From the IMG/VR virus record IMGVR_UViG_3300027754_000055, positions 32,001 to 96,000 of that record: 64,000 bases of DNA; one strand, 5' to 3'. The notes under the pieces were generated by a model. That model saw only the letters and a list, made by a program, of their open reading frames with translations, was not told where the DNA came from and did not search any database. The position numbers and the translations under genes were made by a program. Origin of the DNA: a virus. Below, in pieces: positions 1,698-62,919 of this stretch. How positions within the stretch are numbered: position 1 is the first letter of the stretch; every line of letters begins with the position of its first letter.

Positions 1698-1964
1698 ATG
1701 AATATTGGTAAAATATATGAACTTAAAGCAAAATATTGGTTTATATTTCCATCAAAGGAACTGGCTGCAATAGGCACTGATGAGGGTATAACTTTGCCGC
1801 TACGAGACAATGTTAGTACATTCGGAAAAAATAGTCTTGTTATTTTTTTGGAAGAAGATGGAGATTTAAAAAAGCTACTGACTTCTGATGGAACGATCGG
1901 TTGGGTTATTATATATGACCAGTATCTTGGTTGCTTTGAGGAAGTAAAGATCCACGGCAAATAA
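1698..1964 (+). CDS. IGKLY/GxIGW paralog family protein (SH3-like, predicted)
   Basis: MNIGKIY...KLLTSDGTIGWV. Confidence 0.8.
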   Translation: MNIGKIYELKAKYWFIFPSKELAAIGTDEGITLPLRDNVSTFGKNSLVIFLEEDGDLKKLLTSDGTIGWVIIYDQYLGCFEEVKIHGK

Positions 1965-2056
1965 CCAAAAATATCTCTTTACTTCATTTATTTGATGTGC
2001 TATAGTAGTTTTAAATATTCTAAAATTATTTAGGAACGATTGCAAGGATTAAATAC

Positions 2057-2368
2057 ATGAACCAAGTTTTGGAATTCCATTTGGCTGAAGCGTGGCTTAA
2101 ACTAAACAAATCAAAACAGCCATGCATCATGTTTCGTTATTGGGAAGATCATGAAGAAGGAGAAACCTCAATTCGATATTTTCAAAGGATCTTCACAAGA
2201 GCAAAGATTGATGTGCACTTTCCTCGTGATACAAGTTCGGAATATATTGTAGCAGATGTTGATGCTAGTTTAGTGTACAAAATTGTACAAGAAGTGCATA
2301 GCTACGATAAATGGGGAGAAAATCTTTATGGATGGGACGGTACAACCTTTTACTGGTCAAGAGATTGA
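2057..2368 (+). CDS. Hypothetical protein
   Basis: ORF with AAGGA RBS and TTTACT-17-TATAGT promoter. Confidence 0.75.
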   Translation: MNQVLEFHLAEAWLKLNKSKQPCIMFRYWEDHEEGETSIRYFQRIFTRAKIDVHFPRDTSSEYIVADVDASLVYKIVQEVHSYDKWGENLYGWDGTTFYWSRD

Positions 2369-2374
2369 AATCAA

Positions 2375-2665
2375 TTAAGTCGAAACTTTAGCTTTTTTTG
2401 TATTTGCTACAAATTGTTTGCGGCCACCTTTTGACTTTGTTTTCTTTTTCTTTGCGGTAGCTGCACGCTGTTTTTTGCTCAATGAATAAGCTTTGGCGGC
2501 AGGAAGACAACGATCTGGATTTGATTTATTCTTGCTTGTCCCACATTCACCAGCAACCTTACCAGAAGAGGTTACACGTTTCCATTTTTGCTTGAACCAT
2601 TTGCGTAAATCTTCTTCAATCATCTCTTTGATGATAGTTTTAATAGATTCTTCTAGTGATTCCAT
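2375..2665 (-). CDS. Small basic phage protein with IKTIIKE leader
   Basis: MESLEESIKTIIKEMIEE then LRKWFKQKW...CG...RCLP. Confidence 0.75.
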   Translation of the reverse strand: MESLEESIKTIIKEMIEEDLRKWFKQKWKRVTSSGKVAGECGTSKNKSNPDRCLPAAKAYSLSKKQRAATAKKKKTKSKGGRKQFVANTKKAKVST

Positions 2666-2898
2666 AATTTCATGATTTCTTCTTTGATAATATCTTTGAG
2701 TTGATCATAAGATTCATTAGCTTTCTTCTTTTTTCTCCAGCCGCCACCTTTGCTTTTATACCATCTTGAAGCCCAAGCCATCTTATAAGCAGAATGTTTT
2801 GTAAATTTTTTACTTGCAGCAGCTTTTGCTCTAGACCACAAGGCAGGATTTGTTGGAGAGTTCTCGCCCTCTTCAAGATATTCTAGTTCGTTTTCCAT
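2653..2898 (-). CDS. Small basic phage protein with C-terminal LKDIIKE tag
   Basis: PTNPALWSRAKA...WYKSKGGGW; TAATTA 6 nt before ATG. Confidence 0.75.
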   Translation of the reverse strand: MENELEYLEEGENSPTNPALWSRAKAAASKKFTKHSAYKMAWASRWYKSKGGGWRKKKKANESYDQLKDIIKEEIMKLWNH

Positions 2899-2997
2899 AA
2901 CACTTAATTAGTTTTATATAAAAAAATAATTGGATTCTAATTAATATGTGTACAAAAAGAAAATAAACTTGTTTAATATACGAAAGGAAGAATAATC

Positions 2998-3504
2998 ATG
3001 CATTTCAACTCATTCGTATATTGGCTAAACGGGTTTTTTGAGCTTTCGGGGGCAACCACACTAGACGAAAAACAGGTTAAAATTATCAAAGAGCATATTG
3101 CTCTGACTTTAACAAAGGTCACTCCGACATCATATGAAAGCCCATTAACTATACCGCCATTTGATGTTGAGCGGACCATTAAAAACATGGGCCGTAACGC
3201 ATATATTCAAGAACAAATAAGATTATTCCCAGGTGTTATTTGTGGAAGTTGTGGAAAAACTTGCTCAGAAGAAGGTGGCACTTGTAAGGTTTGCCAAAAA
3301 AATGAATCCCTTAAAGCAGTACCCGCCGAAAATATATTAAATCTTACTACTCACCTATGCACAGAATGTGTAGTCATCTGTCCAAACTCACGAAAAATTG
3401 AAGATCATATTGGTCGCACTTGCCCATTATGTAAAGTGTATTGCAAAAATTTAGAAGCAAAAGATCTGCCAATCATTAATGTTCCAACGATCCTAACCTG
3501 CTAA
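2998..3504 (+). CDS. Hypothetical protein with Cys-rich (Zn-ribbon-like) C-terminus
   Basis: FVYWLNGFFE N-terminus; several CxxC; AAGGA RBS. Confidence 0.75.
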   Translation: MHFNSFVYWLNGFFELSGATTLDEKQVKIIKEHIALTLTKVTPTSYESPLTIPPFDVERTIKNMGRNAYIQEQIRLFPGVICGSCGKTCSEEGGTCKVCQKNESLKAVPAENILNLTTHLCTECVVICPNSRKIEDHIGRTCPLCKVYCKNLEAKDLPIINVPTILTC

Positions 3505-3547
3505 CAAAACATAAAACCATCTACTTATGCTACATAAGGATGATGCC

Positions 3548-4033
3548 ATGAAACTTAGTGAAAAAAAATTATTAAAACAAATTATTAAAGAATCTATTTT
3601 GGTGAAAATCATTGGTGATGTGAACGAAGGCCATATAAGCAATATGGCAAGAGGCATTAAGGGTTTATTTAGTAAGTCAGAAGATGTACCAAGAAGCGTA
3701 CCAAAAGATGTACCAGAAAAAGTTAAAGATGTTCAAGATATTTCAAAAATTCCCGAAACAAGAAGTCTATGGCTACTTATCGGAAATGAAATAAAAGCAC
3801 AAAATGACGATTCAGAACGCACAGGATCAGTTTACCGTTGGATGGGTTTTTCTGATGAATATATAGAGAAATTTGGTAAAATATTTAAAAATCTTTTACC
3901 GCAACACATGGAACTAGTATTAAATTATTACAAATCTTTTAAAGATTCCGATTATGGGCCAGGATTTGACTCTATGATCGAAAAATTTCAAGAAATATAT
4001 GAGATCAGGTCAGCATCTAAAGGTAGATATTGA
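3548..4033 (+). CDS. LKQIIKE-leader protein (putative virion internal protein)
   Basis: MKLSEKKLLKQIIKE; TACTTA at 3522 and AAGGA RBS favour start 3548. Confidence 0.7.
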   Translation: MKLSEKKLLKQIIKESILVKIIGDVNEGHISNMARGIKGLFSKSEDVPRSVPKDVPEKVKDVQDISKIPETRSLWLLIGNEIKAQNDDSERTGSVYRWMGFSDEYIEKFGKIFKNLLPQHMELVLNYYKSFKDSDYGPGFDSMIEKFQEIYEIRSASKGRY

Positions 4034-4043
4034 TAATTTTCCA

Positions 4044-4391
4044 CTAAATCATCTCGCACTCAACCCAAACTCTGATTAAATCAGAGTTTAAAGATGTTTT
4101 TCGATTGTTGTAACTTCCTTTGACTCTAAAGTCTGCAATTTTGCAGTTGATATAATCAAACTTAACTTTTGTTGAACCGTCTTCGTTCAGAAACTTAAGT
4201 TCAGCTTTTCGTGGATTTTTATCTTTTCTCCATTGCTGGAGTTGATTGATTGTTGAAGGAATCTGGCAATCCCACATCACAAGATCTATTTTGGTTGTTG
4301 ATGCCTCAACTGATTCTACCAAAAATGCATCAATTCCTTCAATTGAACATACAAACCGTTGCTCAGCCGTTGTAATAATTTCTTTTTCCAT
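4044..4391 (-). CDS. Divergent tail-tube (gp19-like) paralog
   Basis: RFVCSIEGIDAFL...PSTINQLQQWR...LKFLNEDG resembles T4-like tube proteins; GGAG RBS before ATG 4391. Confidence 0.45.
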   Translation of the reverse strand: MEKEIITTAEQRFVCSIEGIDAFLVESVEASTTKIDLVMWDCQIPSTINQLQQWRKDKNPRKAELKFLNEDGSTKVKFDYINCKIADFRVKGSYNNRKTSLNSDLIRVWVECEMI

Positions 4392-4491
4392 TTTGTCTCC
4401 TAGCTGTGTAACAGATGTTCGTACACAGGCTGTTATGTACTTTACAAATAATATTTCGTCATGTATAGTGATAATCAATTATATTAACGAT

Positions 4492-4752
4492 ATGACAAAC
4501 TACAACCAAAATATTGGTGATTTATTTACAATCACATTTTGTTCTTCTTGGCCAATGTGTAATGCAATAGGACAATTTGTGAGAAATGTAAATAACAATG
4601 AAATTGTTATGATTCTAGAGTACAGGCCACCTCCACATGTTATTCCATCGTATTCCTCAAATTCAGAAGGAATGGCTAAGGTATTATGTGCCGAAGGATG
4701 TGTCGGCTATGTTCCAATTAAGTTCCTTAAAATAATAAGAAAAGAAAAATAA
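4492..4752 (+). CDS. IGKLY/GxIGW paralog
   Basis: NIGDLF...KVLCAEGCVGYV; TTTACA-17-TATAGT upstream. Confidence 0.75.
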   Translation: MTNYNQNIGDLFTITFCSSWPMCNAIGQFVRNVNNNEIVMILEYRPPPHVIPSYSSNSEGMAKVLCAEGCVGYVPIKFLKIIRKEK

Positions 4753-4753
4753 T

Positions 4754-5050
4754 ATGAAAAAAGTATATGTTTTATTGGAATGGCTTGAAGTTGATGTTTG
4801 TGGAGTACATAGCGTCTATGCAAGTAAAGAACTACTTGTAAAAGCGTTACTTGAAACAAAGAATAGTTCAGTTTACAGCAATGCAATGGCTTATTGGAAA
4901 AAATGTATTTGGGCCAATGGAACAACGGTTGACAAATCCAGATATGATAATTTCGAATCATTCCTGATAGATTATATTGAAAAAGTAATTAGCAAAAACC
5001 CACAGTGTCTGTTTGACTGTGTAGGCGAAGCAGAGGTGATCTGTGAGTGA
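4754..5050 (+). CDS. Hypothetical protein (MKKVYV...SVYAS)
   Basis: Coupled ORF. Confidence 0.7.
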   Translation: MKKVYVLLEWLEVDVCGVHSVYASKELLVKALLETKNSSVYSNAMAYWKKCIWANGTTVDKSRYDNFESFLIDYIEKVISKNPQCLFDCVGEAEVICE

Positions 5051-5309
5051 GTACGAAAACCTAGAAATTGGAGGATTATACCATTATACGGTCGGAAGGC
5101 GCATTATTTTTTATGGGCCGAAAGGTAGTCTTTTAATCTCTAACAAGCAAGACGAACTAATTTCAGCAAACGAACCATTTGTTCTACTGGAAATCGGAAA
5201 GATGCACCTAAACACCTTTAGATGCAAGATATTATCGGCAAAAGGTATTGTCGGTTATATAGATACAAGATCAGAGTGTATTCTGAAGATCCCTGGTGAA
5301 AATCAATGA
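5043..5309 (+). CDS. IGKLY/GxIGW paralog
   Basis: LEIGGLY...KILSAKGIVGYI. Confidence 0.8.
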   Translation: MSEYENLEIGGLYHYTVGRRIIFYGPKGSLLISNKQDELISANEPFVLLEIGKMHLNTFRCKILSAKGIVGYIDTRSECILKIPGENQ

Positions 5310-5851
5310 GTGAACAAGAAAAATTTGAAGAAACAGATGCCATGGAATTGCTTAACCATCCTTATGATGATCCTACCCAAGCAATCATATGTTTCTTTCC
5401 AACCACCAACTTTGCAATGTTGTCAGTAACAGACAACTGGTGTTCACTTGTAGCTCGTACCTGCTTTGTACCAACAAAGGTCGAGAAATCCAAAAAACCA
5501 GATCATCCATGGATGGTATATTTGGACTATTATTTTGGTCAAGCTGTGATGGCACCATACAAAAGCATTTGGACCGACAAAGAACCGCAGTTGATGAAAG
5601 TGCTAAAACTGAAATCCATCAACCTTGAGATTGGGAAACTTTACGACACACACGTAAATGCCATGAATAGGCATTCATGGCCCGTGATGAGTAATTTATG
5701 TGATCATAACTACATCCCGCCACTTGCTAATCTCAAACAAAACGATTGGGTAGTCTTGCTTGAACTCATTCCAGAACACAAAAAAGCAAAAGTGTTAACC
5801 GCAAATGGATTGATTGGCTGGATTCCATCTGTGTTGTTAAAAGATCTGTGA
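5306..5851 (+). CDS. Fusion protein with C-terminal IGKLY/GxIGW domain
   Basis: LEIGKLY...KVLTANGLIGWI. Confidence 0.75.
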   Translation: MSEQEKFEETDAMELLNHPYDDPTQAIICFFPTTNFAMLSVTDNWCSLVARTCFVPTKVEKSKKPDHPWMVYLDYYFGQAVMAPYKSIWTDKEPQLMKVLKLKSINLEIGKLYDTHVNAMNRHSWPVMSNLCDHNYIPPLANLKQNDWVVLLELIPEHKKAKVLTANGLIGWIPSVLLKDL

Positions 5852-5954
5852 AAAGGAAATCACAGTAGATGTATAGGCTAAACTTTGGTTAGTGACCAAA
5901 GTTCTTCAACCAATATACTTGATAACTTGATTTCTATAGGCTATAACTAAAACC

Positions 5955-6437
5955 ATGAATCATAAAGAACTATATGTGCTACTTGACTCCGATGGCGATA
6001 TCGTTGAAACATTCCCAGAGAACTCCAGCTACGCTCATATGTTCGACATAAGGCAGTCTATATGCCCTTCTGGTGCCATCCATCGTGCAACATTGGTCAT
6101 TGGGCAGGAAGAGCATGAGAGGCTACAGACGGCCCCTTCAAAGCTCGTTGCAGCTGCTCCGGTTAGAAGAAGGCTGGTTGCCCGCTGGAGGAACAGTGCG
6201 GCGGGAGAAGAAGACAAAGACAAAGACCTTGAGCGAGAGCGAGAGATATTGGGAGAAGTTGTAAGAAAACAACTGCAAGAATTTCTGATGGAAGATATCA
6301 GCAAAGAAAACGAACAAGAAGATGTTGCGAATGCGCTGATATCAGCGCAACACCAAACAGATCCATCCACTGCGGTTGATAAAGAAGCTTTCATAAAAGC
6401 GTTTGCTGAGATGACAGAAAGAAGAAGAAAACAATGA
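5955..6437 (+). CDS. Hypothetical coiled-coil protein
   Basis: ORF behind sigma70-like promoter. Confidence 0.65.
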   Translation: MNHKELYVLLDSDGDIVETFPENSSYAHMFDIRQSICPSGAIHRATLVIGQEEHERLQTAPSKLVAAAPVRRRLVARWRNSAAGEEDKDKDLEREREILGEVVRKQLQEFLMEDISKENEQEDVANALISAQHQTDPSTAVDKEAFIKAFAEMTERRRKQ

Positions 6438-6754: not shown

Positions 6755-6791
6755 TAGCAAACATCACATTGCCCGCAAGGAGATAAGAACA

Positions 6792-7742: not shown

Positions 7743-8207
7743 ATGAAACAGTATATAATCAATTCATTTCTTCACCCGTTCCTATCTGATTATAAAATAT
7801 ATAGAAAATGGATTGGCGGTGAATGGAGTCGTAGATATATTGATTACGCATACAATGACATCTGGTTTTTAAAATCAGATCCTGTACCAATGTGTGCTAG
7901 AGGCATGGCATATTGTGAATACTACCATAAAGAAACAATGCCTTTTAACCAATTAAAAATTGGTAAATTATATCAAATGGTTTCTGGATATGAAACCGTT
8001 GGGATAAGAGACGAAAATGGCGAAGAAGTAGGGCGTGTAAAATTAAAAGATCCTATCGTATATCTTGGGTTTTGTCACAATCCGACAATCGAAAATGATT
8101 GGGGCGAATTAATTAAGCTGGATTATAAGTTTTTAACCTGTGATGGATTAGTCGGTTTTATACCAACCGATAGAGATGTTGGCTTTATTGCCGCCGAAAT
8201 TATCTGA
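7743..8207 (+). CDS. Fusion protein with C-terminal IGKLY/GxIGW domain
   Basis: LKIGKLY...KFLTCDGLVGFI. Confidence 0.75.
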   Translation: MKQYIINSFLHPFLSDYKIYRKWIGGEWSRRYIDYAYNDIWFLKSDPVPMCARGMAYCEYYHKETMPFNQLKIGKLYQMVSGYETVGIRDENGEEVGRVKLKDPIVYLGFCHNPTIENDWGELIKLDYKFLTCDGLVGFIPTDRDVGFIAAEII

Positions 8208-8247: not shown

Positions 8248-8276
8248 TTGACTGGTTATGTATGTAATGCTATCAT
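8248..8276 (+). promoter_or_regulatory. Sigma70-like promoter
   Basis: TTGACT-17-TATCAT with extended TG. Confidence 0.7.
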
Positions 8277-8290
8277 CAATCCAAGTACAA

Positions 8291-12000: not shown

Positions 12001-12291
12001 ATGATATCAACTGAACTTAAAATTGGCAAATTATACGTGCTACCATTCAAATATTCAATATTCGATATCCAAAATGAACAGCGATACACTGGACATACCA
12101 CACGATATAAAACATATCTCACTGAAGGTACGCCAGTACTTATTCTGAATTTACAAAATATAGCCAGCTATATTAATATATCATTAACAAAATACTTAAT
12201 ATACCGCATTCTGTGCCCAGATGGCAATATAGTCTATATCGAAGTAACAGACAATGCAATCAAGGGTTTCTGGAAAGAAGTTAAAATATAA
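12001..12291 (+). CDS. IGKLY/GxIGW paralog
   Basis: LKIGKLY...RILCPDGNIVYI. Confidence 0.8.
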   Translation: MISTELKIGKLYVLPFKYSIFDIQNEQRYTGHTTRYKTYLTEGTPVLILNLQNIASYINISLTKYLIYRILCPDGNIVYIEVTDNAIKGFWKEVKI

Positions 12292-12575
12292 TGGTTTTAC
12301 TTAAACCAGGGAAATTATATGTTAATAATTTCCTGAAGTACAACACAGATCCTGCATTTAGGAAACTTGGCTTTAATGTTTTTGTCGATGAAAATAATTC
12401 TAAATCTTTTGGCATTAGATCAGATGAGATAATTATGATAATTGAAATGGTTAGGCAAGAGATCAATAGAAAAATAAAATTTACAAAATATAAAATCTTA
12501 ACAAAAGATAAGGTTGGTTTTATCAATATCTATGAAGGATTAGAAAAAGATTGGCAGGAAGTATCCCTTGGCTAA
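12291..12575 (+). CDS. IGKLY/GxIGW paralog
   Basis: LKPGKLY...KILTKDKVGFI. Confidence 0.8.
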   Translation: MVLLKPGKLYVNNFLKYNTDPAFRKLGFNVFVDENNSKSFGIRSDEIIMIIEMVRQEINRKIKFTKYKILTKDKVGFINIYEGLEKDWQEVSLG

Positions 12576-12867
12576 TTTGTTAAAACCGGGTAAATTTTAT
12601 AAAAATATTGCCAAAATACGTGGGGGTTTTCTTGTCCATAAAAAACACCCAGATTTAAATAAAAAATTTACTTTAGATCAATTGGATCAATATACCACTA
12701 TATTCGATGGTGATCTTGTTTTAATTGTTGAAAATTTAGGAGAGAAAATTTGTACCCCAAGCAAAAACAAATATATCACCTATAAAATATTAACAAAAGA
12801 TTGTGTTGGCTATATTTTTGTATATAATAACGCTTCAAGAAATTGGGTTGAAGTAACGTCATGTTGA
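12568..12867 (+). CDS. IGKLY/GxIGW paralog
   Basis: LKPGKFY...KILTKDCVGYI. Confidence 0.8.
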   Translation: MANLLKPGKFYKNIAKIRGGFLVHKKHPDLNKKFTLDQLDQYTTIFDGDLVLIVENLGEKICTPSKNKYITYKILTKDCVGYIFVYNNASRNWVEVTSC

Positions 12868-13175
12868 ATCTTAAACCAGGAAAATTATATAAGATATTAT
12901 CTGATCAGAACATAGCAATTTTTAGATATTCAGATGGAAATGTAATAGATATTCTTAAACCAGATAGTAATACTATGTTTTTATATCTGGGAAAATTACC
13001 GTCAGATGTTTTTGATGAAAGAAATAATTTTACAATCAAAAATAATGTTGATTTTATTCGTCATAAATTATTATTGCCTGATGGAACATTGTCATATATC
13101 AATATAGGACGCATAGAAAATCAAAAAGAAATTTACTATGATCCTAATATTAAATGGATGGAAATATTTCCATAA
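12861..13175 (+). CDS. IGKLY/GxIGW paralog
   Basis: LKPGKLY...KLLLPDGTLSYI. Confidence 0.8.
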   Translation: MLNLKPGKLYKILSDQNIAIFRYSDGNVIDILKPDSNTMFLYLGKLPSDVFDERNNFTIKNNVDFIRHKLLLPDGTLSYINIGRIENQKEIYYDPNIKWMEIFP

Positions 13176-35326: not shown

Positions 35327-35719
35327 ATGACCATAACTGTAACGGCAAACGATATACATATTAATTTACACAACAATTGCCATAAGTCAGTAAAGCCTGG
35401 GAAGCTTTATCAGCTTTTACGCCGAAGTCACACTTCAAAGCAAACAGAAGTATGGGATGATAACATTGGAGTCGTCATGGAATATCAAAATATTAATTGT
35501 GAAATATTTGAAGGCATAAAGATATTATCTCTTGCCCCAGATGGAATTTTTATGCTTATAGAAGCCACCACAACAGCAATTGGTATCCATTATGTTGATG
35601 ACTACAAGGGTCCACTAGACCCAGTTTTTCATATTTTAGCGGCAGAAGGCCAGGGATGGTTAAGTTTTAGTCAATGCAATATTTGTGCGGAAGGTTTTTA
35701 CTTAAGAGAAGTGAAGTAG
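35327..35719 (+). CDS. IGKLY/GxIGW paralog
   Basis: VKPGKLY...HILAAEGQGWL. Confidence 0.7.
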   Translation: MTITVTANDIHINLHNNCHKSVKPGKLYQLLRRSHTSKQTEVWDDNIGVVMEYQNINCEIFEGIKILSLAPDGIFMLIEATTTAIGIHYVDDYKGPLDPVFHILAAEGQGWLSFSQCNICAEGFYLREVK

Positions 35720-37421: not shown

Positions 37422-37691
37422 ATGAAAAGATCACAAATTAAAATCGGTGGATTATATCAGCCTACTACTGCTTGTAAGCTACACATTTGGAACACACAGC
37501 CATCATGGTTTGCTGAAGATATATCGGACAATAGTGAAATAATTTGCGTTATTGATGATGATGATCATTTTATTGTTTTAGAGTTATTACCACCGACAGG
37601 TAATAAAAAATATATTGATGTGAAAGTTTTATCTAAAGAAGGGATAATAGGTTGGGTTTCCACTGATATATGTTTTATCAAAGAAGCATAA
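37422..37691 (+). CDS. IGKLY/GxIGW paralog
   Basis: IKIGGLY...KVLSKEGIIGWV. Confidence 0.8.
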   Translation: MKRSQIKIGGLYQPTTACKLHIWNTQPSWFAEDISDNSEIICVIDDDDHFIVLELLPPTGNKKYIDVKVLSKEGIIGWVSTDICFIKEA

Positions 37692-39278: not shown

Positions 39279-39552
39279 GCTAGAAATTGGAAAATTATAT
39301 AAGATATCTTTTCTTCCTTGGCAAACCATACATGCACAAGTAATATCAATATTTGAATCAAGCTCTGGTTACAAAAGAGTTGGTGATTTAGAGTTGCACC
39401 AATATTTTTTATTTTTAAAGGAATCAAAAATAGCAAACGACAAAATTATTTCTGATGATTGGTGCTGCATAAAAATTTTAACCAACACAGGAATCGTTGG
39501 ACATATCTTTTTCGAGCAATCTAAGATAATAATCAAAAAATATGAACTATAA
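39271..39552 (+). CDS. IGKLY/GxIGW paralog
   Basis: LEIGKLY...KILTNTGIVGHI. Confidence 0.8.
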   Translation: MIKLEIGKLYKISFLPWQTIHAQVISIFESSSGYKRVGDLELHQYFLFLKESKIANDKIISDDWCCIKILTNTGIVGHIFFEQSKIIIKKYEL

Positions 39553-40144
39553 AACAATTACCGATGAAGAGTTAGAAACAAGGCTAAATAAATCAATGTC
39601 AAACCTTGACTTATCCAGTTTTAATCTTGCTGGTAAAAAATTCAAAGATGTAGTTCTGTGCCGTGCAAATTTTAATAACTGCAATCTAGAAGGATCAGTG
39701 TTTGAAAATGTAAATTTATCATTCTCTTCTTTTAAGAGCGCAAGTTTAAAAAAAACACAATTTATAAACTGTAATCTATTTCGTACAGATTTATCCTATT
39801 CGGATTTAACAGAATCTAAATCTAATTCAAGAATGTTTTCGGTAAATTTAAAACGTGCAAATTTAATGAATTGTGATTTTAATGGATCTGATCTGGAAGA
39901 TGCAAACTTTAGTTTTGCCCAAAACACAAAAAAGAAACCGCAAATAGGGAAAATTTATAAACTACATAGAACATTCTGCTATAGGGTTAGTCCATACAGT
40001 TATAATATAATAAACGATGATTATGGAATGATCATTGAAGTTCATAAAAATAAAACATTCGACATGCTCTGTTCCGATAAAGTAATTAGAAATATTCCCA
40101 TGTGGGCAAATTACTCTTTACTAGTAAATAAAGAAACAGAATAA
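39542..40144 (+). CDS. Pentapeptide repeat protein with IGKIY-like C-domain
   Basis: Pentapeptide repeats then PQIGKIY. Confidence 0.75.
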   Translation: MNYKTITDEELETRLNKSMSNLDLSSFNLAGKKFKDVVLCRANFNNCNLEGSVFENVNLSFSSFKSASLKKTQFINCNLFRTDLSYSDLTESKSNSRMFSVNLKRANLMNCDFNGSDLEDANFSFAQNTKKKPQIGKIYKLHRTFCYRVSPYSYNIINDDYGMIIEVHKNKTFDMLCSDKVIRNIPMWANYSLLVNKETE

Positions 40145-40672: not shown

Positions 40673-40939
40673 ATGCAAAATAATAAAAATACGCTCAAGG
40701 TCTGCGACCTAATTTTAGGAAAATTATATTTTTTAAACCATCATTCATTGAACATATTCAAAAGCATGACTGTAGGAGATTATGAGATTATTGGTAGTTT
40801 AAGTGAACTTGAACCTTTTTTACTATTGGGTCTGTCAGAAGTTATTAGTGATGATCGTTATTTTTCTTGCCGTATTTTGACAAAAACTGGCATTATAGGT
40901 TGGGTAGCTGTTACAATCAAGGAACTGCATTTTGCATAA
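40673..40939 (+). CDS. IGKLY/GxIGW paralog
   Basis: LILGKLY...RILTKTGIIGWV. Confidence 0.8.
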   Translation: MQNNKNTLKVCDLILGKLYFLNHHSLNIFKSMTVGDYEIIGSLSELEPFLLLGLSEVISDDRYFSCRILTKTGIIGWVAVTIKELHFA

Positions 40940-40951: not shown

Positions 40952-41200
40952 ATGTCACGAGTATTTATGTTAAATATTGATGCAGTATACAAAGCAGTTG
41001 AAATCTTAAATAAAGAAGGCGATCTATCCGTTGAATACGTTGGATGTGATGGGGAATTGAAAAATCGATTCGTCGCTAAATCAAATGGCTACTCTTGTTT
41101 TGGCGCAACTGCACTAGAAGCAACACTGAAACTTTTCCGGGCAAGATACCCAAATATTGGATTAAATTTTTTTCATAAAAATGATGGCGGCTGGGTGTGA
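40952..41200 (+). CDS. Hypothetical protein
   Basis: ORF in operon. Confidence 0.65.
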   Translation: MSRVFMLNIDAVYKAVEILNKEGDLSVEYVGCDGELKNRFVAKSNGYSCFGATALEATLKLFRARYPNIGLNFFHKNDGGWV

Positions 41201-41495
41201 ACCATCAACAATATATTTTGTGAAAAGAAAAGAAAAAATAAGAAATGGCAAATTATATCTTTGCAAAAGCTCTTGGAATACATTGCCCATTACCAAAGAC
41301 ATCGAAAATGCCTACTCTTTATTTATAATTGAATCAATAATTGGATATATTATACCAGAGCATATGTTTGCCATTCTAGAACATAGAAACCATACAAGAA
41401 ATTCCGTAATATGCAAAGTCTTATCAGAAGATGGTATAATAGGTTGGTCAGTCTTTGATAAACAAGAACTAATATTAGTAAATCATCCTCAATAA
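41181..41495 (+). CDS. IGKLY/GxIGW paralog
   Basis: IRNGKLY...KVLSEDGIIGWS. Confidence 0.75.
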   Translation: MMAAGCEPSTIYFVKRKEKIRNGKLYLCKSSWNTLPITKDIENAYSLFIIESIIGYIIPEHMFAILEHRNHTRNSVICKVLSEDGIIGWSVFDKQELILVNHPQ

Positions 41496-41629
41496 TTCAG
41501 TATTAAATATTCTATTTATTGATATAATCAAAATGGTTTTATTGATTGGAAAATTGTACGAAATTAATGTTAAGAAATCATATTCATTCTATGCCTCAAA
41601 GAATAAATTTTTTGCATTTAGTCAATTAC

Positions 41630-42769
41630 TCACAGGACAAGCCTGTGAGCTTGTAAATCAGTTGCCCGATTCACGTCTGGGTGTTTGACTTCACCCTGTT
41701 CCAAAGTTTTATTTGGAAATAGTTGTTCGGAAATATAACGATCCCTTATATTAATTGCTGCATTTATATCCGAATTAATTAATAATTTACATCTTGAACA
41801 ATTGTAAAGACCTTTGTTCCTTGCTTGCTTATCAATCATTCCGCAACAAGAGCAAATCTGTGAAGTAAATCTAGCATCTACGAAGTTTATCTTTACTCCA
41901 CTTGCTTCTGCTTTATATTTTAAAAGCATTTCAAATTGTTTAAATCCCCAGTTTGAAACTACTTTATTTGATTTTTTGTTATATTTCTTGCTTTTTATTT
42001 TTGTTAAATTCTCTAAAACATAAATGGAAACATCAGGATCATTTGCTAGCTTTTTAGCTAGACAATGGAGAAAATTATTGCTAAACCGCTTCTCTTTTCC
42101 GCTTAATGCTTTTAATAGCCTTTTAGCAGAATGAGTGCCTTTTGCTTGTAATTTACTTTTTAAATACAAATGTTTTCTTTTATTTTTTCTTAACGATTTA
42201 CCAGAATACAATTCTCCTTCACTGGTTGCTATCGTATTTATAATTCCTCGATCTAATCCAACAGTTTTACCTGCTGCTCTGTTTGAAGTTTCTTTATTCT
42301 CAAACAAAAAAGTAAAATATAATTCTTTCCCTTTCAAGGAAAGATATCCTGTCTTTAAAAGATTCCAACTTTTAAAATAATCTTTCGAATAATCAGATAA
42401 TTTTATGATTGTTTTAATTCTTTTATTAACAGAAGAAATGGTTAATTGCTCTCCTCTTAAAGTAAAAGTTCTTTGATCATATCTTATCGAACTTGTTTGC
42501 TTCTTTTTGGGAATATGTTTCTTTCTTTTATTTTTACAAGACTCAAGAGCCATGTCTCTTGCAGCTTGGATCAAAGCAGTTGGTAATTCGAAAGTTTCTT
42601 TTGCTTGGATATATGTTTCTTTGTGTGCTTTGAGCTTTGAGGTTGAATTATTTTGAATGCTCCAAGCAGAATAGAAATTAAAAACATTAGCGAATGTTTC
42701 CATTGTTTTTAATAATGTATTTTTATCATTCTCTGAAATGTTGAGTTTGATTTTAATAGCTCTTCGCAT
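41630..42769 (-). CDS. tnpB: RNA-guided endonuclease TnpB (distinct clade from 221..1471)
   Basis: GLDRG, VLENL, NSDINA; CSCC/CSRC. Confidence 0.93.
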   Translation of the reverse strand: MRRAIKIKLNISENDKNTLLKTMETFANVFNFYSAWSIQNNSTSKLKAHKETYIQAKETFELPTALIQAARDMALESCKNKRKKHIPKKKQTSSIRYDQRTFTLRGEQLTISSVNKRIKTIIKLSDYSKDYFKSWNLLKTGYLSLKGKELYFTFLFENKETSNRAAGKTVGLDRGIINTIATSEGELYSGKSLRKNKRKHLYLKSKLQAKGTHSAKRLLKALSGKEKRFSNNFLHCLAKKLANDPDVSIYVLENLTKIKSKKYNKKSNKVVSNWGFKQFEMLLKYKAEASGVKINFVDARFTSQICSCCGMIDKQARNKGLYNCSRCKLLINSDINAAINIRDRYISEQLFPNKTLEQGEVKHPDVNRATDLQAHRLVL

Positions 42770-42788
42770 ATTTATAAGTATTAGCAAC

Positions 42789-43199
42789 ATGGAAAAAACT
42801 ACAAATAATCATACAACTCACATTCTTGGCTTTCATATTATTTTTTGTCCAAAATATAGAAGCATGCTTTCCGAAGGTCATTGTATTGCTTTGAGAAAAT
42901 GTTTTTATGAAATAGCAGAAGAATATGATTGGAAAATAGAAAGTTTAGAAGTTGACTTGGATCATGTAAACTTATTTATCCAAGCGAACCCTACAGATAG
43001 TCCGGCTGATATTGCCAGAACATTTAAAAGCATATCAGCTATATTTTTATTTACAAAATTTCCCAAATTAAAGGAAAGAAAGTTTTGGGGTTCTGGTCTA
43101 TGGTCGAGAGGGACATATTATTCAACTGTTGGCAAGGTTGCAGAAGACGTTGTAAGGAATTATATTGAATCGCATTCATCTCACAGGACGAGCCTGTGA
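42789..43199 (+). CDS. tnpA: Y1 HUH transposase TnpA (HUH reads HVN)
   Basis: HIIFCPKYR, DHVNL, FKSISA, LWSRGTY, VRNYIE. Confidence 0.9.
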   Translation: MEKTTNNHTTHILGFHIIFCPKYRSMLSEGHCIALRKCFYEIAEEYDWKIESLEVDLDHVNLFIQANPTDSPADIARTFKSISAIFLFTKFPKLKERKFWGSGLWSRGTYYSTVGKVAEDVVRNYIESHSSHRTSL

Positions 43200-43447
43200 G
43201 TTTTCTGCTCATATCAATAAAAATCTAATCATTTTATTTGATAGCGGAACCATTGGATTATATCTCGGTAGCACAAACGAACAAATTTTTGAAAGTGAAG
43301 AACCAGATCATATTTTTCTGATATCTGATAAAATTATTCATTTTTCATATTTTTTCCATGAGCATGTTAATTTCGTTCTTGTATCTGGACAAAATGTAAA
43401 AAATATTATCATTTGACAACCGAAAAAAATCTATATAATATCGTTAT

Positions 43448-46525: not shown

Positions 46526-46564
46526 GCATACATCATATCAGTTTGCGTTGGTAAGGTAAAGCAG

Positions 46565-46825
46565 TTAGCCTTCTTTACAGGGATTAATTTCCTCAATGCA
46601 ACCCTTGCACCATTCAGCGTCTTCTGATTCTGAATAGGCGACCCACCCAATGTTTCCATCGGCTGTTAGAATCTTACAGGATAATTTATCCTGTTCCAAT
46701 AGAACAAAAAGACTTTTTTCTGTGACATAAGAAACCTTGATTTCTTTGGGGTGAACAATTGTTTCTTTTGAAGGATAAAGCACCCAAAAATACTTTTTGA
46801 ACTGATACAAGCTACCGATCTTCAT
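46565..46825 (-). CDS. IGKLY/GxIGW paralog
   Basis: MKIGSLY...KILTADGNIGWV; close to 1698..1964. Confidence 0.8.
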   Translation of the reverse strand: MKIGSLYQFKKYFWVLYPSKETIVHPKEIKVSYVTEKSLFVLLEQDKLSCKILTADGNIGWVAYSESEDAEWCKGCIEEINPCKEG

Positions 46826-49926: not shown

Positions 49927-50223
49927 TTATTTTGAAATTTTTTTTATTAATTTAATCGAGCGTTTACTTGTTGGTATATTTGAAATATTTCCATCACCCG
50001 AAAGAATCCAGCCTATATTTCCATCAGCGGTCAAAACTCTATATTCTTTTTTAGCAGTTTTAATTTCTATCCACGGAATATCTTTGATCTCTAAAATCAA
50101 TATTATATCTTCTGGAATTAGGACGCTTGTCGTCGCTGTTATTTTCCCCGACTCTTTCCATAGTACCGTTAACTTATTGATCTTGTAAAGATCGCCCACT
50201 TTAATCATTGTATTTTTTGCCAT
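49927..50223 (-). CDS. IGKLY/GxIGW paralog
   Basis: IKVGDLY...RVLTADGNIGWI. Confidence 0.8.
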   Translation of the reverse strand: MAKNTMIKVGDLYKINKLTVLWKESGKITATTSVLIPEDIILILEIKDIPWIEIKTAKKEYRVLTADGNIGWILSGDGNISNIPTSKRSIKLIKKISK

Positions 50224-50450
50224 TCTTCTTTGGAATAAAATACATATCCAACAATTCCATTTTGGCTTATGATTTTAATGGAGCCATATCCATCTGGCCC
50301 ATCTTGCGGTGAGTATGTTAAGTTTGCTTCAAGAACCATGCCAATTTCTTTGGGATAAATATATCCCAAATGCATATGAAGCCATATAGCCTTTCCGCTT
50401 ATACCAATATATTTGTAGAGCTTACCAATCTCAATTTCTTTTTTATTCAT
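50205..50450 (-). CDS. IGKLY/GxIGW paralog
   Basis: IEIGKLY...KIISQNGIVGYV. Confidence 0.8.
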   Translation of the reverse strand: MNKKEIEIGKLYKYIGISGKAIWLHMHLGYIYPKEIGMVLEANLTYSPQDGPDGYGSIKIISQNGIVGYVFYSKEEWQKIQ

Positions 50451-51003: not shown

Positions 51004-51720
51004 ATGAGAATATTTGATATATTATTTGAACAACATGATATTAGTGCAAAAAAACCACGTAGAACAATTTCAGAGGTTGGCTCTAAAGGAATTGTTCCAG
51101 TGCATCTTGAAAATGATCAGCGAGTTTTACTTTTAAATAGCAAAAACATCGCAGACGCCACAAAAAATGCAAAAAGTAAAATTCAATTTATGAGAATGTT
51201 TATAAATGGCGTTGCAGAAAAATATACAGATTCAACTCCGTATGACGTAAATGCTCAATGTATAATCGGACAACTTAATTATAAAAAAATCTCAAATGGG
51301 CTCTATAAAGTCAATTCTGTAGCTGCAATAAAAAGTTACGGCTCTTTGCTATATGAATTATTAATGCAGTTTATCTCCGCAGAAAACGGTTATATTACTC
51401 CATCGGTTCCAATAGAACAAAAAGCACTGGACGTTTATCATAGATTTATGAACAGATCTGACATAGAGAAAAAACAAATACAAGATATCAATAGAGTCGC
51501 ATATTTCGTTCGCAAAAAACAAATCAGCAATCAATACCCAGAATCAAAACAAGAAAATAAACCATTTTATTTAGGTTTTCAAATGCAAGGCGCACCATCA
51601 TTCACTCCAATAAAAGAAATACTTGGATCAGCAATGGATGAGTTTAATGTTTCCGATCAAGAAATAGCTAAAGCAGCAAGCGATTGGTTTAATAAAAGAT
51701 ATAAGCCAGAAGATCAGTGA
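51004..51720 (+). CDS. GNAT-like protein with ILFE leader
   Basis: YKVNSVAAIKSYGSLLYE...ITPS...ALDVY resembles a GNAT acetyl-CoA loop; TACTTA 5 nt before ATG. Confidence 0.5.
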   Translation: MRIFDILFEQHDISAKKPRRTISEVGSKGIVPVHLENDQRVLLLNSKNIADATKNAKSKIQFMRMFINGVAEKYTDSTPYDVNAQCIIGQLNYKKISNGLYKVNSVAAIKSYGSLLYELLMQFISAENGYITPSVPIEQKALDVYHRFMNRSDIEKKQIQDINRVAYFVRKKQISNQYPESKQENKPFYLGFQMQGAPSFTPIKEILGSAMDEFNVSDQEIAKAASDWFNKRYKPEDQ

Positions 51721-52022
51721 TTGGCCAAAACAAAGTTCAAGCCTAAATAGTAAAATTCTTCATCACCCAAAAGAAAATATCCAACATTACCTCTGGAAGT
51801 TATTATTTTATGCCACCACAGGCTGTCATCTAAATCGTGCTGAATGGTCTCAATAAAACAAAAAATATTTTGATCGTTCGTATATACAATATCAATAATG
51901 CTGTTTTTTTCCAAATCATTATCCATTGCATATTTCCAGACTTCTAACTTATCTGTCATACGATAGCTTTGATGACGACTGCACCAATAAAGTTTACCAG
52001 ATTTTAAATTAATTCTTTTCAT
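51714..52022 (-). CDS. IGKLY/GxIGW paralog
   Basis: LKSGKLY...KIITSRGNVGYF. Confidence 0.8.
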   Translation of the reverse strand: MKRINLKSGKLYWCSRHQSYRMTDKLEVWKYAMDNDLEKNSIIDIVYTNDQNIFCFIETIQHDLDDSLWWHKIITSRGNVGYFLLGDEEFYYLGLNFVLANH

Positions 52023-61485: not shown

Positions 61486-61733
61486 ATGTTTAAATATGCC
61501 AATTGTTGAGGAATGTAATGGTTTTTATATTTTAAAATTTTCTTCAAGAACACCTTGTTCAAATCCAAAATCTAAAATTACTAGTTCTCCACTATTTCTC
61601 ACTCCCCAATTATCTGGCCTTAGATCATGTGCAGAAATTTTGCATCCGATCAGTAGCTTGTCAATTGCTTGCAGGCTTTTCCCGTGAGCGAACTGCTCAT
61701 AAAAATAAAAAAATCCTATATTTATAAAAAAAT

Positions 61734-62039
61734 ATGAAAACTAATTTTAAAAAAGATTTGAAAACAATCATCAAACAAATTTTGTTGGAGATAGGTTTGC
61801 AAGGTATGATACAACTTTCTGCTTTTGATAAAAATATTCAAGCTAATATGCTAGCTGCAATTGAACCGTATAAAACCACAGACCCAGAAAAATATAAAAA
61901 CCTTAAAGGATTAATAGATAAAGATGTTGTTGAAGAACTTCTAAAAAAAGTCGATGACGCCAATAAACCAACCGCAACATTGCCACCCGCCGCAAGAAGT
62001 GATGCTCAACGAGCGGAAATGCGAAAATGGAATAGATAA
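61734..62039 (+). CDS. LKTIIK-leader small protein
   Basis: MKTNFKKDLKTIIKQILLE; TATTTA upstream. Confidence 0.75.
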   Translation: MKTNFKKDLKTIIKQILLEIGLQGMIQLSAFDKNIQANMLAAIEPYKTTDPEKYKNLKGLIDKDVVEELLKKVDDANKPTATLPPAARSDAQRAEMRKWNR

Positions 62040-62238
62040 GTTGACTTTATTATATTTGAATGCGGTAGGTATTTTTGGTATTTCAATAACTTTTTGATCA
62101 TCAGTGCCACAGACGACTCTTCAAGAATTTTCTCCAATTGGTTTAAATCTAAAATTTTATTACATGAGCAAAAAACCCACGGGTTCATCCTGTGAGTAGT
62201 TCGCTTGGAAACAACCAATCTCGTATGTTTGCGAACAT
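62006..62238 (-). pseudogene. Small gene disrupted by 44-bp IS remnant
   Basis: MFANIRDWLFP|NKILDLNQLEK joins in frame on excision of 62161..62204. Confidence 0.7.
62161..62204 (+). mobile_element. 44-bp solo-hairpin IS200/IS605 derivative (PATE-like)
   Basis: TTTAT + TACATGAGCAAAAAA (LE) + CCCACGGG-TTCAT-CCTGTGAG + TAGTTCGC (RE). Confidence 0.85.
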
Positions 62239-62296
62239 ACTATCTTCATAAAGGATATTGACTAGTGACATTGTGATGGTTAGATTTAGAATGATA

Positions 62297-62539
62297 TTAT
62301 TTGATACGACTATATTTATTTTTCCTTATAACCGTGCTAAAATAAGCTCCAGCAGAATTGGATGTCACTAATTCGTCATATGTTTCTTTGTTTATTCCGT
62401 GATATGAATATTGGGTTCCGTTTTGGAATGTTAACTCTAGAATATTCATCAGTGTGTCATATTTCGCAAATGCTAAATTTGAAGAATTTACAAAAGTATG
62501 CAATAGGTAACGTTCTTGATTTAGAAATGTAGTTTCCAT
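62297..62539 (-). CDS. KTSC domain protein
   Basis: VNSSNL..YD..LELTFQNG..YSY..SAGAYF..IR. Confidence 0.88.
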   Translation of the reverse strand: METTFLNQERYLLHTFVNSSNLAFAKYDTLMNILELTFQNGTQYSYHGINKETYDELVTSNSAGAYFSTVIRKNKYSRIK

Positions 62540-62583
62540 TTTATCTCCTAGTTAGTTTTATATATAATAAAATAAGGTACAAT

Positions 62584-62919
62584 ATGAAAAAAGGCAGTTT
62601 ATGCTTTATAAAAAACAAAAAGAATGCATTGAATCCTTATGTGGTTGTTTATTCTGATATTGACGAAGTGCTAAAACAAAGAAATAAAAATAATTCTTGG
62701 CTACCGTGCATGACAACTTCCGCTAATATAAAGAAATTTTTACCTACAAAGCAAAGAGTATTGCTTAAATCTTTAGAGGAAACATTTTTATTAATTGAAG
62801 AACTAAAAGATGATAATGGAAGTTTTTATTATCATTGTCTATATAATGACAGTTGCGGCTGGATTATTGGAAGTAAAAAGAATTTTACAATAGAAGAGAA
62901 ATCAGATGACAAACACTAG
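62584..62919 (+). CDS. Divergent IGKLY/GxIGW paralog
   Basis: MKKGSL...HCLYNDSCGWII. Confidence 0.6.
   Translation: MKKGSLCFIKNKKNALNPYVVVYSDIDEVLKQRNKNNSWLPCMTTSANIKKFLPTKQRVLLKSLEETFLLIEELKDDNGSFYYHCLYNDSCGWIIGSKKNFTIEEKSDDKH

What the first reader, a model, noticed from the sequence alone, without database searches (positions are those of the whole stretch)
1698..62919. About 21 dispersed paralogs of one ~90-aa domain with conserved ends and hypervariable middle
Seen: N-terminal (L/I)x(I/P)G(K/G/S/D)LY and C-terminal (K/R)(I/V)L(T/S)xxGx(I/V)G(W/Y/F)(I/V) at 1698, 4492, 5043, 5306 (C-domain), 7743 (C-domain), 12001, 12291, 12568, 12861, 35327, 37422, 39271, 39542 (C-domain), 40673, 41181, 41533 (IS-split), 46565, 49927, 50205, 51714, 62584. 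They occur on both strands, singly or in tandem, mostly in sigma70-type cassettes. The insert after GKLY varies strongly in length and sequence. Inference: an SH3/KOW-like beta-barrel scaffold with a variable loop, expanded as an antibody-like binder library, for example inhibitors of host defence proteins. About one gene in five in this window belongs to it.
Basis: partly seen in the sequence, partly recalled or inferred. Interest (0 to 1): 0.85.

Follow-up and report, generated by a model that had tools for sequence, protein, structure and literature searches.

The report
Expanded standalone SH3b family in huge phage
About one gene in five in this stretch of an uncultivated huge tailed phage encodes a variant of one small, previously unnamed SH3-type beta-barrel protein with a fixed core and highly divergent loops; the same family fills dense gene arrays in other uncultivated phages, and its function, probably binding many different targets inside the host cell, is untested.

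Summary
Seventeen score E<=2e-8 and four are weaker (2e-5 to 0.024). The best reversed-sequence control is 0.87.

Two paralogs only ~20% identical both fold confidently (pLDDT 87) into an SH3-like barrel, closest to SH3b domains of cell-wall hydrolases. The family profile finds SH3_3 proteins and Pex13 SH3 by sequence. The conserved 'ends' are strand b1 (GKLY) and the b3-b4 hairpin (KILTxxGxIGW). The variable 'middle' is the RT-like and n-Src-like loops.

No Pfam, PHROG or NCBIfam model covers the family. It has at least 360 clusters at 50% identity. No member was found in 50,697 deposited phage genomes, and a strict-motif scan of ~185,000 cellular species genomes gave only chance hits. It forms arrays elsewhere: 45 of 138 ORFs on one viral contig, 29 of 168 on a distant relative.

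It grows by tandem duplication and is under purifying selection (dN/dS 0.31). There is no DGR.

The 'SH3-like scaffold with variable loops' reading is supported. The 'binder library against host defence' reading is plausible but untested. The 'sigma70 cassettes' claim is not supported. The scan has noted similar SH3-like arrays in other phages.

The parts
1698..1964 (+). standalone member (88 aa), 46565-type subfamily
   Evidence: external HMM E=1.1e-16
4492..4752 (+). standalone member (86 aa; IGDLF ... AKVLCAEGCVGYV)
   Evidence: external HMM E=1.6e-9 on the enclosing frame 4246-4749; translation
5043..5309 (+). standalone member (88 aa)
   Evidence: E=8.4e-17
5306..5851 (+). 181-aa protein: unknown ~100-aa N-terminal part plus C-terminal family domain
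   Evidence: E=2.3e-14, domain at residues 97-175; no Pfam family for the N-terminal part
7743..8207 (+). 154-aa protein: unknown ~70-aa N-terminal part plus C-terminal family domain
   Evidence: E=1.6e-9
12001..13175 (+). tandem array of four overlapping members (12001-12291, 12291-12575, 12568-12867, 12861-13175)
   Evidence: E=2.5e-12, 6.5e-9, 1.6e-8 and 8.6e-9; 12291 and 12568 are each other's best hits (46 bits); 12568 folded, pLDDT 87.2
35327..35719 (+). divergent 130-aa member with enlarged loops
   Evidence: E=2e-5
37422..37691 (+). standalone member (89 aa)
   Evidence: E=5.6e-19; 97% ortholog in L001
39271..39552 (+). standalone member (93 aa)
   Evidence: E=7.1e-16
39542..40144 (+). 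pentapeptide-repeat protein with a C-terminal domain that is only a marginal family match
   Evidence: Pfam Pentapeptide 1.3e-16; family HMM E=0.024 at residues 130-176
40673..40939 (+). standalone member (88 aa)
   Evidence: E=1.2e-16
41181..41495 (+). standalone member (104 aa; the L001 ortholog starts at an internal Met, 91 aa)
   Evidence: E=6.7e-15
41533..43416 (+). divergent member split by an IS200/IS605 (tnpA+tnpB) insertion: N-terminal fragment 41533-~41620, C-terminal fragment ~43220-43416
   Evidence: fragment E=3.6e-3; intact 95-aa gene at L001:5139-5426
46565..46825 (-). standalone member (86 aa), the most conserved subfamily, with orthologs in G1 and G2
   Evidence: E=6.8e-22; AF2 pLDDT 86.8; 84 bits to G2_24182 and 66 bits to G1_19320
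49927..50450 (-). two overlapping tandem members (50205-50450, 49927-50223)
   Evidence: E=3e-14 and 6.4e-17
51714..52022 (-). standalone member (102 aa)
   Evidence: E=2.2e-14; ortholog G1_28732, 58 bits
62584..62919 (+). divergent 111-aa probable member
   Evidence: E=8.9e-3 over the whole profile

Best explanation
SHOWN. The 21 loci belong to one phage-restricted, so far unnamed family of small (about 75-125 aa), soluble, standalone proteins. They fold as an SH3b-type beta-barrel and are a distant offshoot of the bacterial SH3_3 superfamily. The conserved N-terminal motif (phi-x-phi-G-K-L-Y) is strand b1. FVLLE is b2. K-(I/V)-L-(T/S)-x-x-G-x-(I/V)-G-(W/Y)-(I/V) is the b3-b4 hairpin. The nearly invariant residues are glycines and core hydrophobics, plus a Tyr (98%), Lys/Arg (92%), Thr/Ser (87%) and Trp/Tyr (90%). 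The segments that differ almost completely between paralogs are the RT-like loop, the n-Src-like loop and the C-terminal tail. The family grows by tandem duplication followed by deep divergence (birth and death) in uncultivated, very large contractile-tailed phages. Each copy is kept under purifying selection.

INFERRED. Each paralog is a cytoplasmic binding module whose loops recognise a different partner on a common scaffold. The invariant Tyr/Trp may form a shared platform, as in canonical SH3 domains. The set would work as a germline-encoded repertoire of adaptors or inhibitors aimed at host proteins: host takeover, counter-defence or toxin neutralisation. A few copies serve as C-terminal targeting domains on larger proteins.
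For: Family reality and count.

Fold: AF2 pLDDT 86.8/pTM 0.77 and 87.2/0.78 for two paralogs ~20% identical. Foldseek top hits are all SH3/SH3b. VIA-align gives 2evr_A SH3b Z 8.0 and 6.4, and phiSM101 endolysin SH3_3 Z 7.8 (rmsd 2.2 over 64) and 5.8. ESM Atlas structural neighbours are SH3_3/SH3_16 proteins.

Sequence link to SH3: the profile hits Pex13 SH3 at E=5.8e-4. Nine of 86 relatives hit Pfam SH3_3, best 1.2e-5. All seven long proteins found by the family profile among 1.84 billion are SH3_3-repeat proteins.

Phage restriction: nearest Atlas clusters are 100% viral, Uroviricota. The only two motif hits in ~185,000 species genomes are out-of-frame chance matches.

Arrays: 42 and 28 matches on two viral contigs, which is 45/138 and 29/168 ORFs. 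Sixteen of 17 metagenome loci hold 2-16 copies.

Tandem duplication: adjacent copies average 36 bits against 16 bits for others.

Constraint: dN/dS 0.31. Ortholog identity is 0.88/0.87 in core strands against 0.60/0.65 in loops.

Heterogeneous targets are suggested by pI 4.9-9.7 and loop lengths of 22-36 and 2-22 aa.

Soluble: no TM-like or signal-like segment.

Accessory/conflict neighbourhood: SLOG, RNA ligase, Thg1, R2K ATP-grasp, RNase T and pentapeptide proteins.

Fusions to other N-terminal parts.
Against: No direct evidence for any ligand, partner, expression time or phenotype. The host is unknown.

Fold Z-scores are moderate (6.4-8.0), which on their own would show only a common small barrel.

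There is no signal of positive selection between strains, though the data are small: 33 synonymous and 43 non-synonymous changes.

Classical SH3b domains bind cell-wall peptides, not cytoplasmic proteins. SH3-like barrels can also bind nucleic acids.

No fused forms of 208 aa or more were found, so domain architecture says little.
Confidence: 0.5

Rival explanations
1. Classical SH3b role. The proteins bind peptidoglycan or other envelope polymers, for example as accessory targeting or regulatory factors for lysis, as superinfection-exclusion factors, or as virion-delivered wall binders. Paralogs would be tuned to different wall chemistries.
For: The closest structural and sequence relatives are SH3b domains of NlpC/P60 peptidases, endolysins, LytB and lysostaphin.
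Against: No signal peptide or TM segment in any window member. None is fused to a catalytic wall-hydrolase domain. Twenty to 45 deeply diverged copies per genome fragment is hard to reconcile with the few wall chemistries of one host.
Confidence: 0.12
2. Nucleic-acid-binding small barrels (KOW/Tudor/Sm/EF-P-domain-like). They would act as a family of transcription, translation or RNA-repair regulators, or as DNA-coating proteins.
For: The second model also matches EF-P domain I, Spt5 KOW and UvrD/PcrA Tudor domains at Z 4.6-5.9. Some members are basic, pI 9.0-9.7. Neighbours include RNA-repair genes. The jumbo-phage review proposes a ~35-copy zinc ribbon of Bacillus phage G as possible transcription factors or DNA binders (PMC7824862).
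Against: Half of the members are acidic or neutral, pI 4.9-6.7. Sequence profiles connect to SH3_3 and SH3, not to KOW or Sm. No conserved basic patch appears among the invariant positions.
Confidence: 0.12
3. Virion-associated proteins: decoration, internal or ejected proteins whose copy diversity reflects structural or host-entry roles.
For: Huge phages package many proteins. Another first-stage note on this window proposes packaged effectors (e1-6018502, untested).
Against: The members lie in accessory regions, not in the structural block of the relative G2 (45-92 kb). They give no match to any PHROG structural family. They have no common terminal tag.
Confidence: 0.08
4. Functionless or selfish duplicates: spurious ORFs, or neutral products of a duplication-prone region.
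For: No known function. High turnover between related phages.
Against: Purifying selection, dN/dS 0.31. Orthologs are conserved at 60-97% across many samples. Confident folds. At least 360 clusters at 50% identity share the same invariant residues.
Confidence: 0.03

Closest known systems
Bacterial SH3 domains (SH3b; Pfam SH3_3 PF08239, SH3_16 PF18348) of NlpC/P60 peptidases, LytB, lysostaphin and phage endolysins (e.g. PDB 2evr, 4krt, 7pj3, 4lxc)
   Same: Same barrel fold, with the same order of strands. Shared sequence signature in b2-b4 (phi-phi-phi-L-E ... W/Y-x-K-phi-L-T-x-x-G-x-phi-G-W-phi). Detection works in both directions by profile: SH3_3 proteins are found by the family profile, and some members are found by the SH3_3 model.
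   Different: Standalone rather than attached to a hydrolase. No secretion signal. A distinctive invariant N-terminal G-x-L-Y strand. Much longer and more variable RT-like loop. Phage-only distribution. Dozens of paralogs per genome. Window members score below the Pfam threshold (best 13.8 bits against 27).
Eukaryotic SH3 domains (e.g. yeast Pex13 SH3, PDB 1jqq/1n5z)
   Same: The profile match at E=5.8e-4 covers most of the domain. The conserved motifs are arranged alike: ALYDY-like G-K-L-Y at b1, an aromatic residue before b3, and G-x-G-(W/Y)-(I/V) at b4. As in SH3, the variable RT and n-Src loops flank a conserved aromatic surface.
   Different: No evidence for proline-rich peptide binding. 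The 3-10 helix motif (SNY) is not conserved. The loops are far longer.
Lineage-specific expansions in jumbo phages, e.g. the ~35-copy zinc ribbon of Bacillus phage G (Iyer et al. 2021, PMC7824862)
   Same: One small domain amplified to dozens of copies in a very large phage genome, with function unknown.
   Different: Different fold. The present family is spread over many uncultivated phage lineages rather than confined to one phage.
Arrays of small SH3-like paralogs noted earlier by this scan in other phages (Acinetobacter phages, rV5-like coliphages, a distant T4-like phage, an actinophage, a gut phage)
   Same: The same theme: tandem arrays of 10-30 small SH3-like barrels in accessory or early regions, with unknown function.
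   Different: Different sequence families. No shared short words with this one. Those reported as closest to SH3_15/Mind bomb or KOW/Tudor are not SH3_3. These are AI notes that I did not re-test.
Polyimmunity loci of bacterial polymorphic-toxin systems (analogy from general knowledge)
   Same: Tandem arrays of small, diverged paralogous binding proteins, each presumed to neutralise a different partner.
   Different: Different folds. Bacterial rather than phage. No adjacent toxin genes here. This is a functional analogy only.

Membership tests
SH3 fold / SH3b superfamily (Pfam clan SH3) | Small five- to six-stranded SH3-type beta-barrel | tested here: met
   Two AF2 models (pLDDT 86.8 and 87.2). 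The top Foldseek and VIA-align hits are SH3/SH3b domains: Z 8.0/6.4 to 2evr_A, and 7.8 (rmsd 2.2, 64 aligned) to 4krt_B.
Pfam SH3_3 (PF08239) | Score at or above the curated gathering threshold (27 bits) | tested here: not met
   The best window member, 49927-50223, scores 13.8 bits, E=0.069. Among 86 wider relatives, 9 match at E<=0.01, best 1.2e-5.
Pfam SH3_3 (PF08239) | Significant sequence-profile relationship to bona fide SH3_3 domains | tested here: met
   The family profile, searched against 1.84 billion proteins, hits seven long proteins at E 1.6e-8 to 9e-6. All carry 1-16 SH3_3 domains.
SH3b cell-wall-binding domains | Attached to, or working with, a secreted cell-wall hydrolase; exported | tested here: not met
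   Members are standalone, with no hydrolase domain. No longer fused forms were found (weak evidence). No hydrophobic N-terminus or TM-like segment.
Canonical (eukaryotic-type) SH3 | Binding of proline-rich peptides on the aromatic platform between the RT and n-Src loops | not testable with these tools
   Only the sequence relation is shown (Pex13 SH3, E=5.8e-4), together with conservation of a Tyr (98%) and a Trp/Tyr (90%).
   EF-P domain I and Spt5 appear at Z 4.6-5.9 for the second model only, below or level with SH3b hits. No Pfam KOW hit.
DGR-diversified binding proteins | Reverse transcriptase plus a template/variable repeat pair | tested here: not met
   No direct DNA repeats involve the members. 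No reverse transcriptase was seen among the ORFs I scanned; these did not cover every ORF in the window. Strain-level dN/dS is 0.31.
Any named phage family (PHROGs v4) or NCBIfam | Significant match to a library model | tested here: not met
   No PHROG hit better than E=0.0099, and the weak hits scatter over unrelated PHROGs. No NCBIfam hit at E<=0.1.

The most novel reading that the evidence does not exclude
The arrays are a germline-encoded counter-immunity repertoire. Each SH3b paralog would use its RT and n-Src loops to bind and neutralise a different host defence protein, toxin or takeover target. Small SH3-like barrels, which this scan has noted as arrays in several unrelated phage groups, would then be a general and so far unrecognised scaffold that phages amplify for this purpose.
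Probability: 0.25. Interest if true: 0.85.

Novelty: new variant of a known kind. Interest (0 to 1): 0.6.

Why it matters
The family has at least 360 clusters at 50% identity. It takes up 17-33% of the genes on several large phage contigs, yet it has no name in Pfam, PHROGs or NCBIfam and no member in any deposited phage genome. A phage that spends that much coding capacity on one scaffold is presumably solving a many-target problem.

If the targets are host defence or physiology proteins, the arrays would be a rich source of natural, compact inhibitors. They would also help explain how huge phages cope with diverse hosts.

The family is also a clean natural example of a fixed SH3 core that tolerates loop lengths of 2-36 residues, which is of interest for binder engineering.

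If the proteins turn out to bind one common ligand, or to be structural, the finding would be of modest interest.

Tried and rejected
- Whole-genome search: no genome is held for this window.
I replaced it with a degenerate DNA motif scan.
- Deposited phage genomes: tblastn with three members found nothing.
- Host identification failed. The TnpB has no relative above 50% identity among plasmids. The genome search needs a G handle as the centre for a lineage search and does not accept a locus id there, so I did not pursue that route. The 'provirus' contig G2 has phage genes, not host flank, at its end. Low Shine-Dalgarno use is only a hint.
- The two cellular-genome motif hits (a Ginsengibacter MAG and a Chlamydiae MAG) are out-of-frame chance matches inside unrelated genes.
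- Giant-virus origin, suggested by the GVMAG label of L001, is rejected. The evidence is the T4-type baseplate wedge gene in the relative G2, the family-A polymerase fragment, RecA, IS200/IS605 and the Uroviricota neighbours.
- Longer fused forms: none found (weak evidence).
- Literature searches found no description of the family.
- The pentapeptide-SH3 link is not established. Adjacency is expected by chance in such dense regions, and the fused C-terminal domain is only a marginal match.
Full report
OBSERVATION. Translating the listed coordinates shows the two motifs directly. A first HMM trained on 14 window ORFs also picked up the C-terminal-domain and fragmentary copies. To avoid circularity I built HMMs from relatives outside the window. 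An HMM of 86 sequences with a single window sequence (A3) gave E 1e-6 to 2e-19 for the 14 core ORFs, 1.4e-11 for 5306-5851, 3.4e-7 for 7743-8207 and 8.4e-6 for the 4492 gene. Seventeen score E<=1.6e-8. The others are 35327 at 2e-5, the 41533 fragment at 3.6e-3, 62584 at 8.9e-3 and the C-terminus of 39542-40144 at 0.024. The best reversed-sequence control is 0.87. Members make up 19 of 95 non-overlapping ORFs and 10% of the bases.

The IS-split claim is verified. Contig L001 is syntenic with window 37.4-44 kb at ~97% protein identity. It lacks the IS200/IS605 element and has the intact 95-aa gene.

The 'sigma70 cassette' part is not supported. Promoter-like sites are hardly enriched over shuffles. 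Several members overlap the upstream gene, and only about six have a -10-like box next to the ATG.

WHAT THE PROTEIN IS. No Pfam, PHROG or NCBIfam model matches the window members. The only hint is SH3_3 at E=0.069.

AlphaFold2 with a 28-sequence alignment gave a confident model of 46565-46825 (pLDDT 86.8, pTM 0.77). A second model, of the basic paralog 12568-12867 (~20% identical, long insert), was equally confident (87.2, 0.78) and has the same order of strands.

An exhaustive VIA-align search puts the N-terminal SH3b of a Nostoc NlpC/P60 peptidase (2evr_A) first for both models (Z 8.0 and 6.4). The phiSM101 endolysin SH3_3 follows (Z 7.8, rmsd 2.2 over 64 residues; Z 5.8 for the second model), then LytB, lysostaphin and AtlE repeats. 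These Z-scores alone would show only a common small barrel.

The sequence evidence makes the case for homology:
- The wide-family profile matches the Pex13 SH3 domain at E=5.8e-4 (0.034 with the narrower profile).
- Nine of 86 relatives hit Pfam SH3_3, best 1.2e-5.
- In an index-free search of 1.84 billion representatives, all seven long proteins found are SH3_3-repeat wall proteins: NlpC/P60, lysozyme and dockerin proteins.

BFVD and the ESM Atlas agree on the fold and offer no characterised close relative.

ANATOMY. Mapping the alignment onto the models gives these elements:
- phi-x-phi-G-K-L-Y is strand b1.
- Next comes a long RT-like excursion of 22-36 residues.
- FVLLE is strand b2.
- Next comes an n-Src-like loop of 2-22 residues.
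- K-(I/V)-L-(T/S)-x-x-G-x-(I/V)-G-(W/Y)-(I/V) is the b3-b4 hairpin.
- A variable tail carries a last short strand.

Paralog identity is 0.51, 0.24 and 0.38 in the three strand blocks, and 0.05-0.08 in the loops and the tail. Among orthologs the strands are 0.87-0.88 identical and the loops 0.60-0.65.

Across 166 sequences the near-invariant positions are Gly 99%, Tyr 98%, Leu 84-93%, Gly 95% and 92%, Lys/Arg 92%, Thr/Ser 87%, Trp/Tyr 90% and Glu/Asp 71%. This is a structural core plus a possible shared aromatic platform. pI ranges from 4.9 to 9.7. No member has a TM-like or signal-like segment.

DISTRIBUTION. Word-indexed search found only orthologs of individual window paralogs, all unnamed and from metagenomes. 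One lies on a 399-kb contig. The index-free profile search found 360 clusters at E<=1e-3. Nearly all are standalone proteins of 75-125 aa with both motifs.

A 39-bit degenerate DNA pattern for K-I-L-T-x-x-G-x-I-G-W-I gave the following:
- Two viral contigs.
- Seventeen metagenome loci.
- Only two hits in ~185,000 species genomes, both out-of-frame chance matches.

Three tblastn queries found nothing in 50,697 deposited phage genomes. The nearest Atlas clusters are 100% viral, Uroviricota.

The two viral contigs are packed with the family. There are 42 and 28 profile matches, which is 45 of 138 ORFs on the 66-kb contig G1 and 29 of 168 on the 123-kb contig G2. Sixteen of the 17 metagenome loci hold 2-16 copies, and none is DNA-similar to the window.

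G2 is a distant relative of the window's phage. The block 16.9-35.1 kb (large proteins, PolA-like fragment, SSB, RecA) is syntenic at 44-72% identity. G2 also encodes a T4 gp6-type baseplate wedge protein. The lineage is therefore a contractile-tailed phage with a very large genome: CheckV estimates 24-33% completeness for contigs of 66-123 kb. The giant-virus-bin label of L001 is probably a binning error.

EVOLUTION. Adjacent copies are more alike than others: mean 36 bits against 16 in G1 and G2, and 22 against 15 in the window. The 12291/12568 pair shares a one-residue deletion in the hairpin. This indicates tandem duplication. A few paralogs have recognisable orthologs across contigs (46565 with 84 and 66 bits; 51714 with 58 bits), but most do not. 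That is a birth-and-death pattern.

Between the window and L001, pooled dN/dS is 0.31 for members (33 synonymous, 43 non-synonymous changes) and 0.25 for neighbours. The genes are real and constrained, and they are not hypervariable between strains. No DNA repeats link the copies, and no reverse transcriptase was seen among the ORFs scanned, so this is not a DGR. One ortholog differs from 46565 only by a 24-aa insertion in the RT-like loop, which shows that the loops accept indels.

CONTEXT. Members are interspersed with accessory genes of the 'conflict' type: an SLOG protein, an RNA ligase, Thg1, an R2K ATP-grasp, an RNase T-like exonuclease, pentapeptide-repeat and LRV-repeat proteins, TnpB elements and an intein-bearing RecA. 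In three window genes the domain is the C-terminal part of a larger protein. In one of these, 39542-40144, the match is only marginal. No fusions of 208 aa or more were found in the database (weak evidence).

MECHANISM. Shown: the fold, the phage-only family, its expansion by duplication, the purifying selection, and a fixed core with divergent loops.

Inferred: each copy binds a different partner through its loops, and the set is a repertoire of cytoplasmic adaptors or inhibitors for host takeover or counter-defence. I put this at about 0.5 overall, and at about 0.25 for the specific counter-immunity version.

The rivals are cell-wall or envelope binding (0.12), nucleic-acid binding (0.12), virion-associated roles (0.08) and functionless duplicates (0.03).

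COMPARISON AND NOVELTY. The family is a new, unnamed branch of the SH3b superfamily. It fails the Pfam SH3_3 threshold and lacks the hydrolase and secretion context, so I do not file it as an SH3_3 cell-wall-binding domain, although it is homologous.

Lineage-specific expansions in jumbo phages are known in principle: a ~35-copy zinc ribbon in Bacillus phage G (PMC7824862). This scan has also noted arrays of other SH3-like small proteins in several unrelated phages (AI notes that I did not re-test). The present case is therefore a new variant of a recurring theme. It stands out for the breadth of the family (at least 360 clusters) and its density (up to a third of the genes on a contig). I found no literature describing it.

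Noticed in passing
L001 (IMGVR_UViG_GVMAG-M-3300023184-33_000001), 1-5953: A 97%-identical strain variant of window 37.4-44 kb is filed in a giant-virus metagenome bin. Its content, and that of its relatives, is tailed-phage-like, so it is probably mis-binned.
   Followed up: partly
window 37422-43943 vs L001: Divergence between the two strains is mosaic. dS runs from 0.0 (39542-40144) to 0.5 (40673-40939) and 1.39 (43704 onwards) in neighbouring genes, which suggests recombination between related phages.
   Followed up: partly
window 46565-46825 (-) vs protein P0034: A database ortholog is identical except for a 24-aa insertion in the RT-like loop, so indels in the variable loop occur even between close relatives.
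   Followed up: no
window 35725-37353 (-), 37784-38002, 39542-40144; G1 4237-5495, 8885-9424, 15213-15965; G2 42503-43918: Pentapeptide-repeat proteins sit next to SH3 arrays in all three contigs, and one is fused to a marginal SH3-like C-terminal domain. The G1 homolog keeps that C-terminal domain but lacks the GKLY motif. Adjacency could be chance in such dense regions.
   Followed up: partly
window 221-1471 (+) and 44182-45432 (-); G1 45756-47006: The two inverted TnpB copies of the window are 93.5% identical to a TnpB on G1, a contig that shares few other genes with the window. The same IS therefore circulates among different huge phages. The best plasmid relatives are below 50% identity.
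   Followed up: partly
window 32788-35100 (+): The RecA carries a Hint + LAGLIDADG intein. The G2 homolog (344 aa) aligns only to the RecA part and has no intein.
   Followed up: no
G2 (L010) 2389-7370; window 29597-30721: The related phage G2 encodes a DnaE-type Pol III alpha split into two ORFs, in addition to the family-A polymerase fragment it shares with the window.
   Followed up: no
window, all ORFs; e.g. upstream of 12001, 37422, 41533, 62584: Only 21% of ORFs have an SD-like 4-mer upstream, against 6% background. Several genes have a -10-like box 1-6 nt from the ATG, which suggests leaderless transcripts.
   Followed up: partly
window 8258-11257 (+), repeats at 10220-11227: An SF2 helicase (ResIII/DEAD) carries four ~78-aa tandem repeats that match the Pfam pseudomurein-binding repeat PMBR.
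   Followed up: no
window 46565-46825 and 1698-1964; G2 24182, 40883-42079, 100632; G1 19000-19607: A recognisable subfamily has the signature x-W-phi-phi-(Y/F)-P-(S/T) after GKLY, and often an I-E-E-V tail. It makes up 21 of 137 short database representatives and is the paralog best conserved across contigs.
   Followed up: partly
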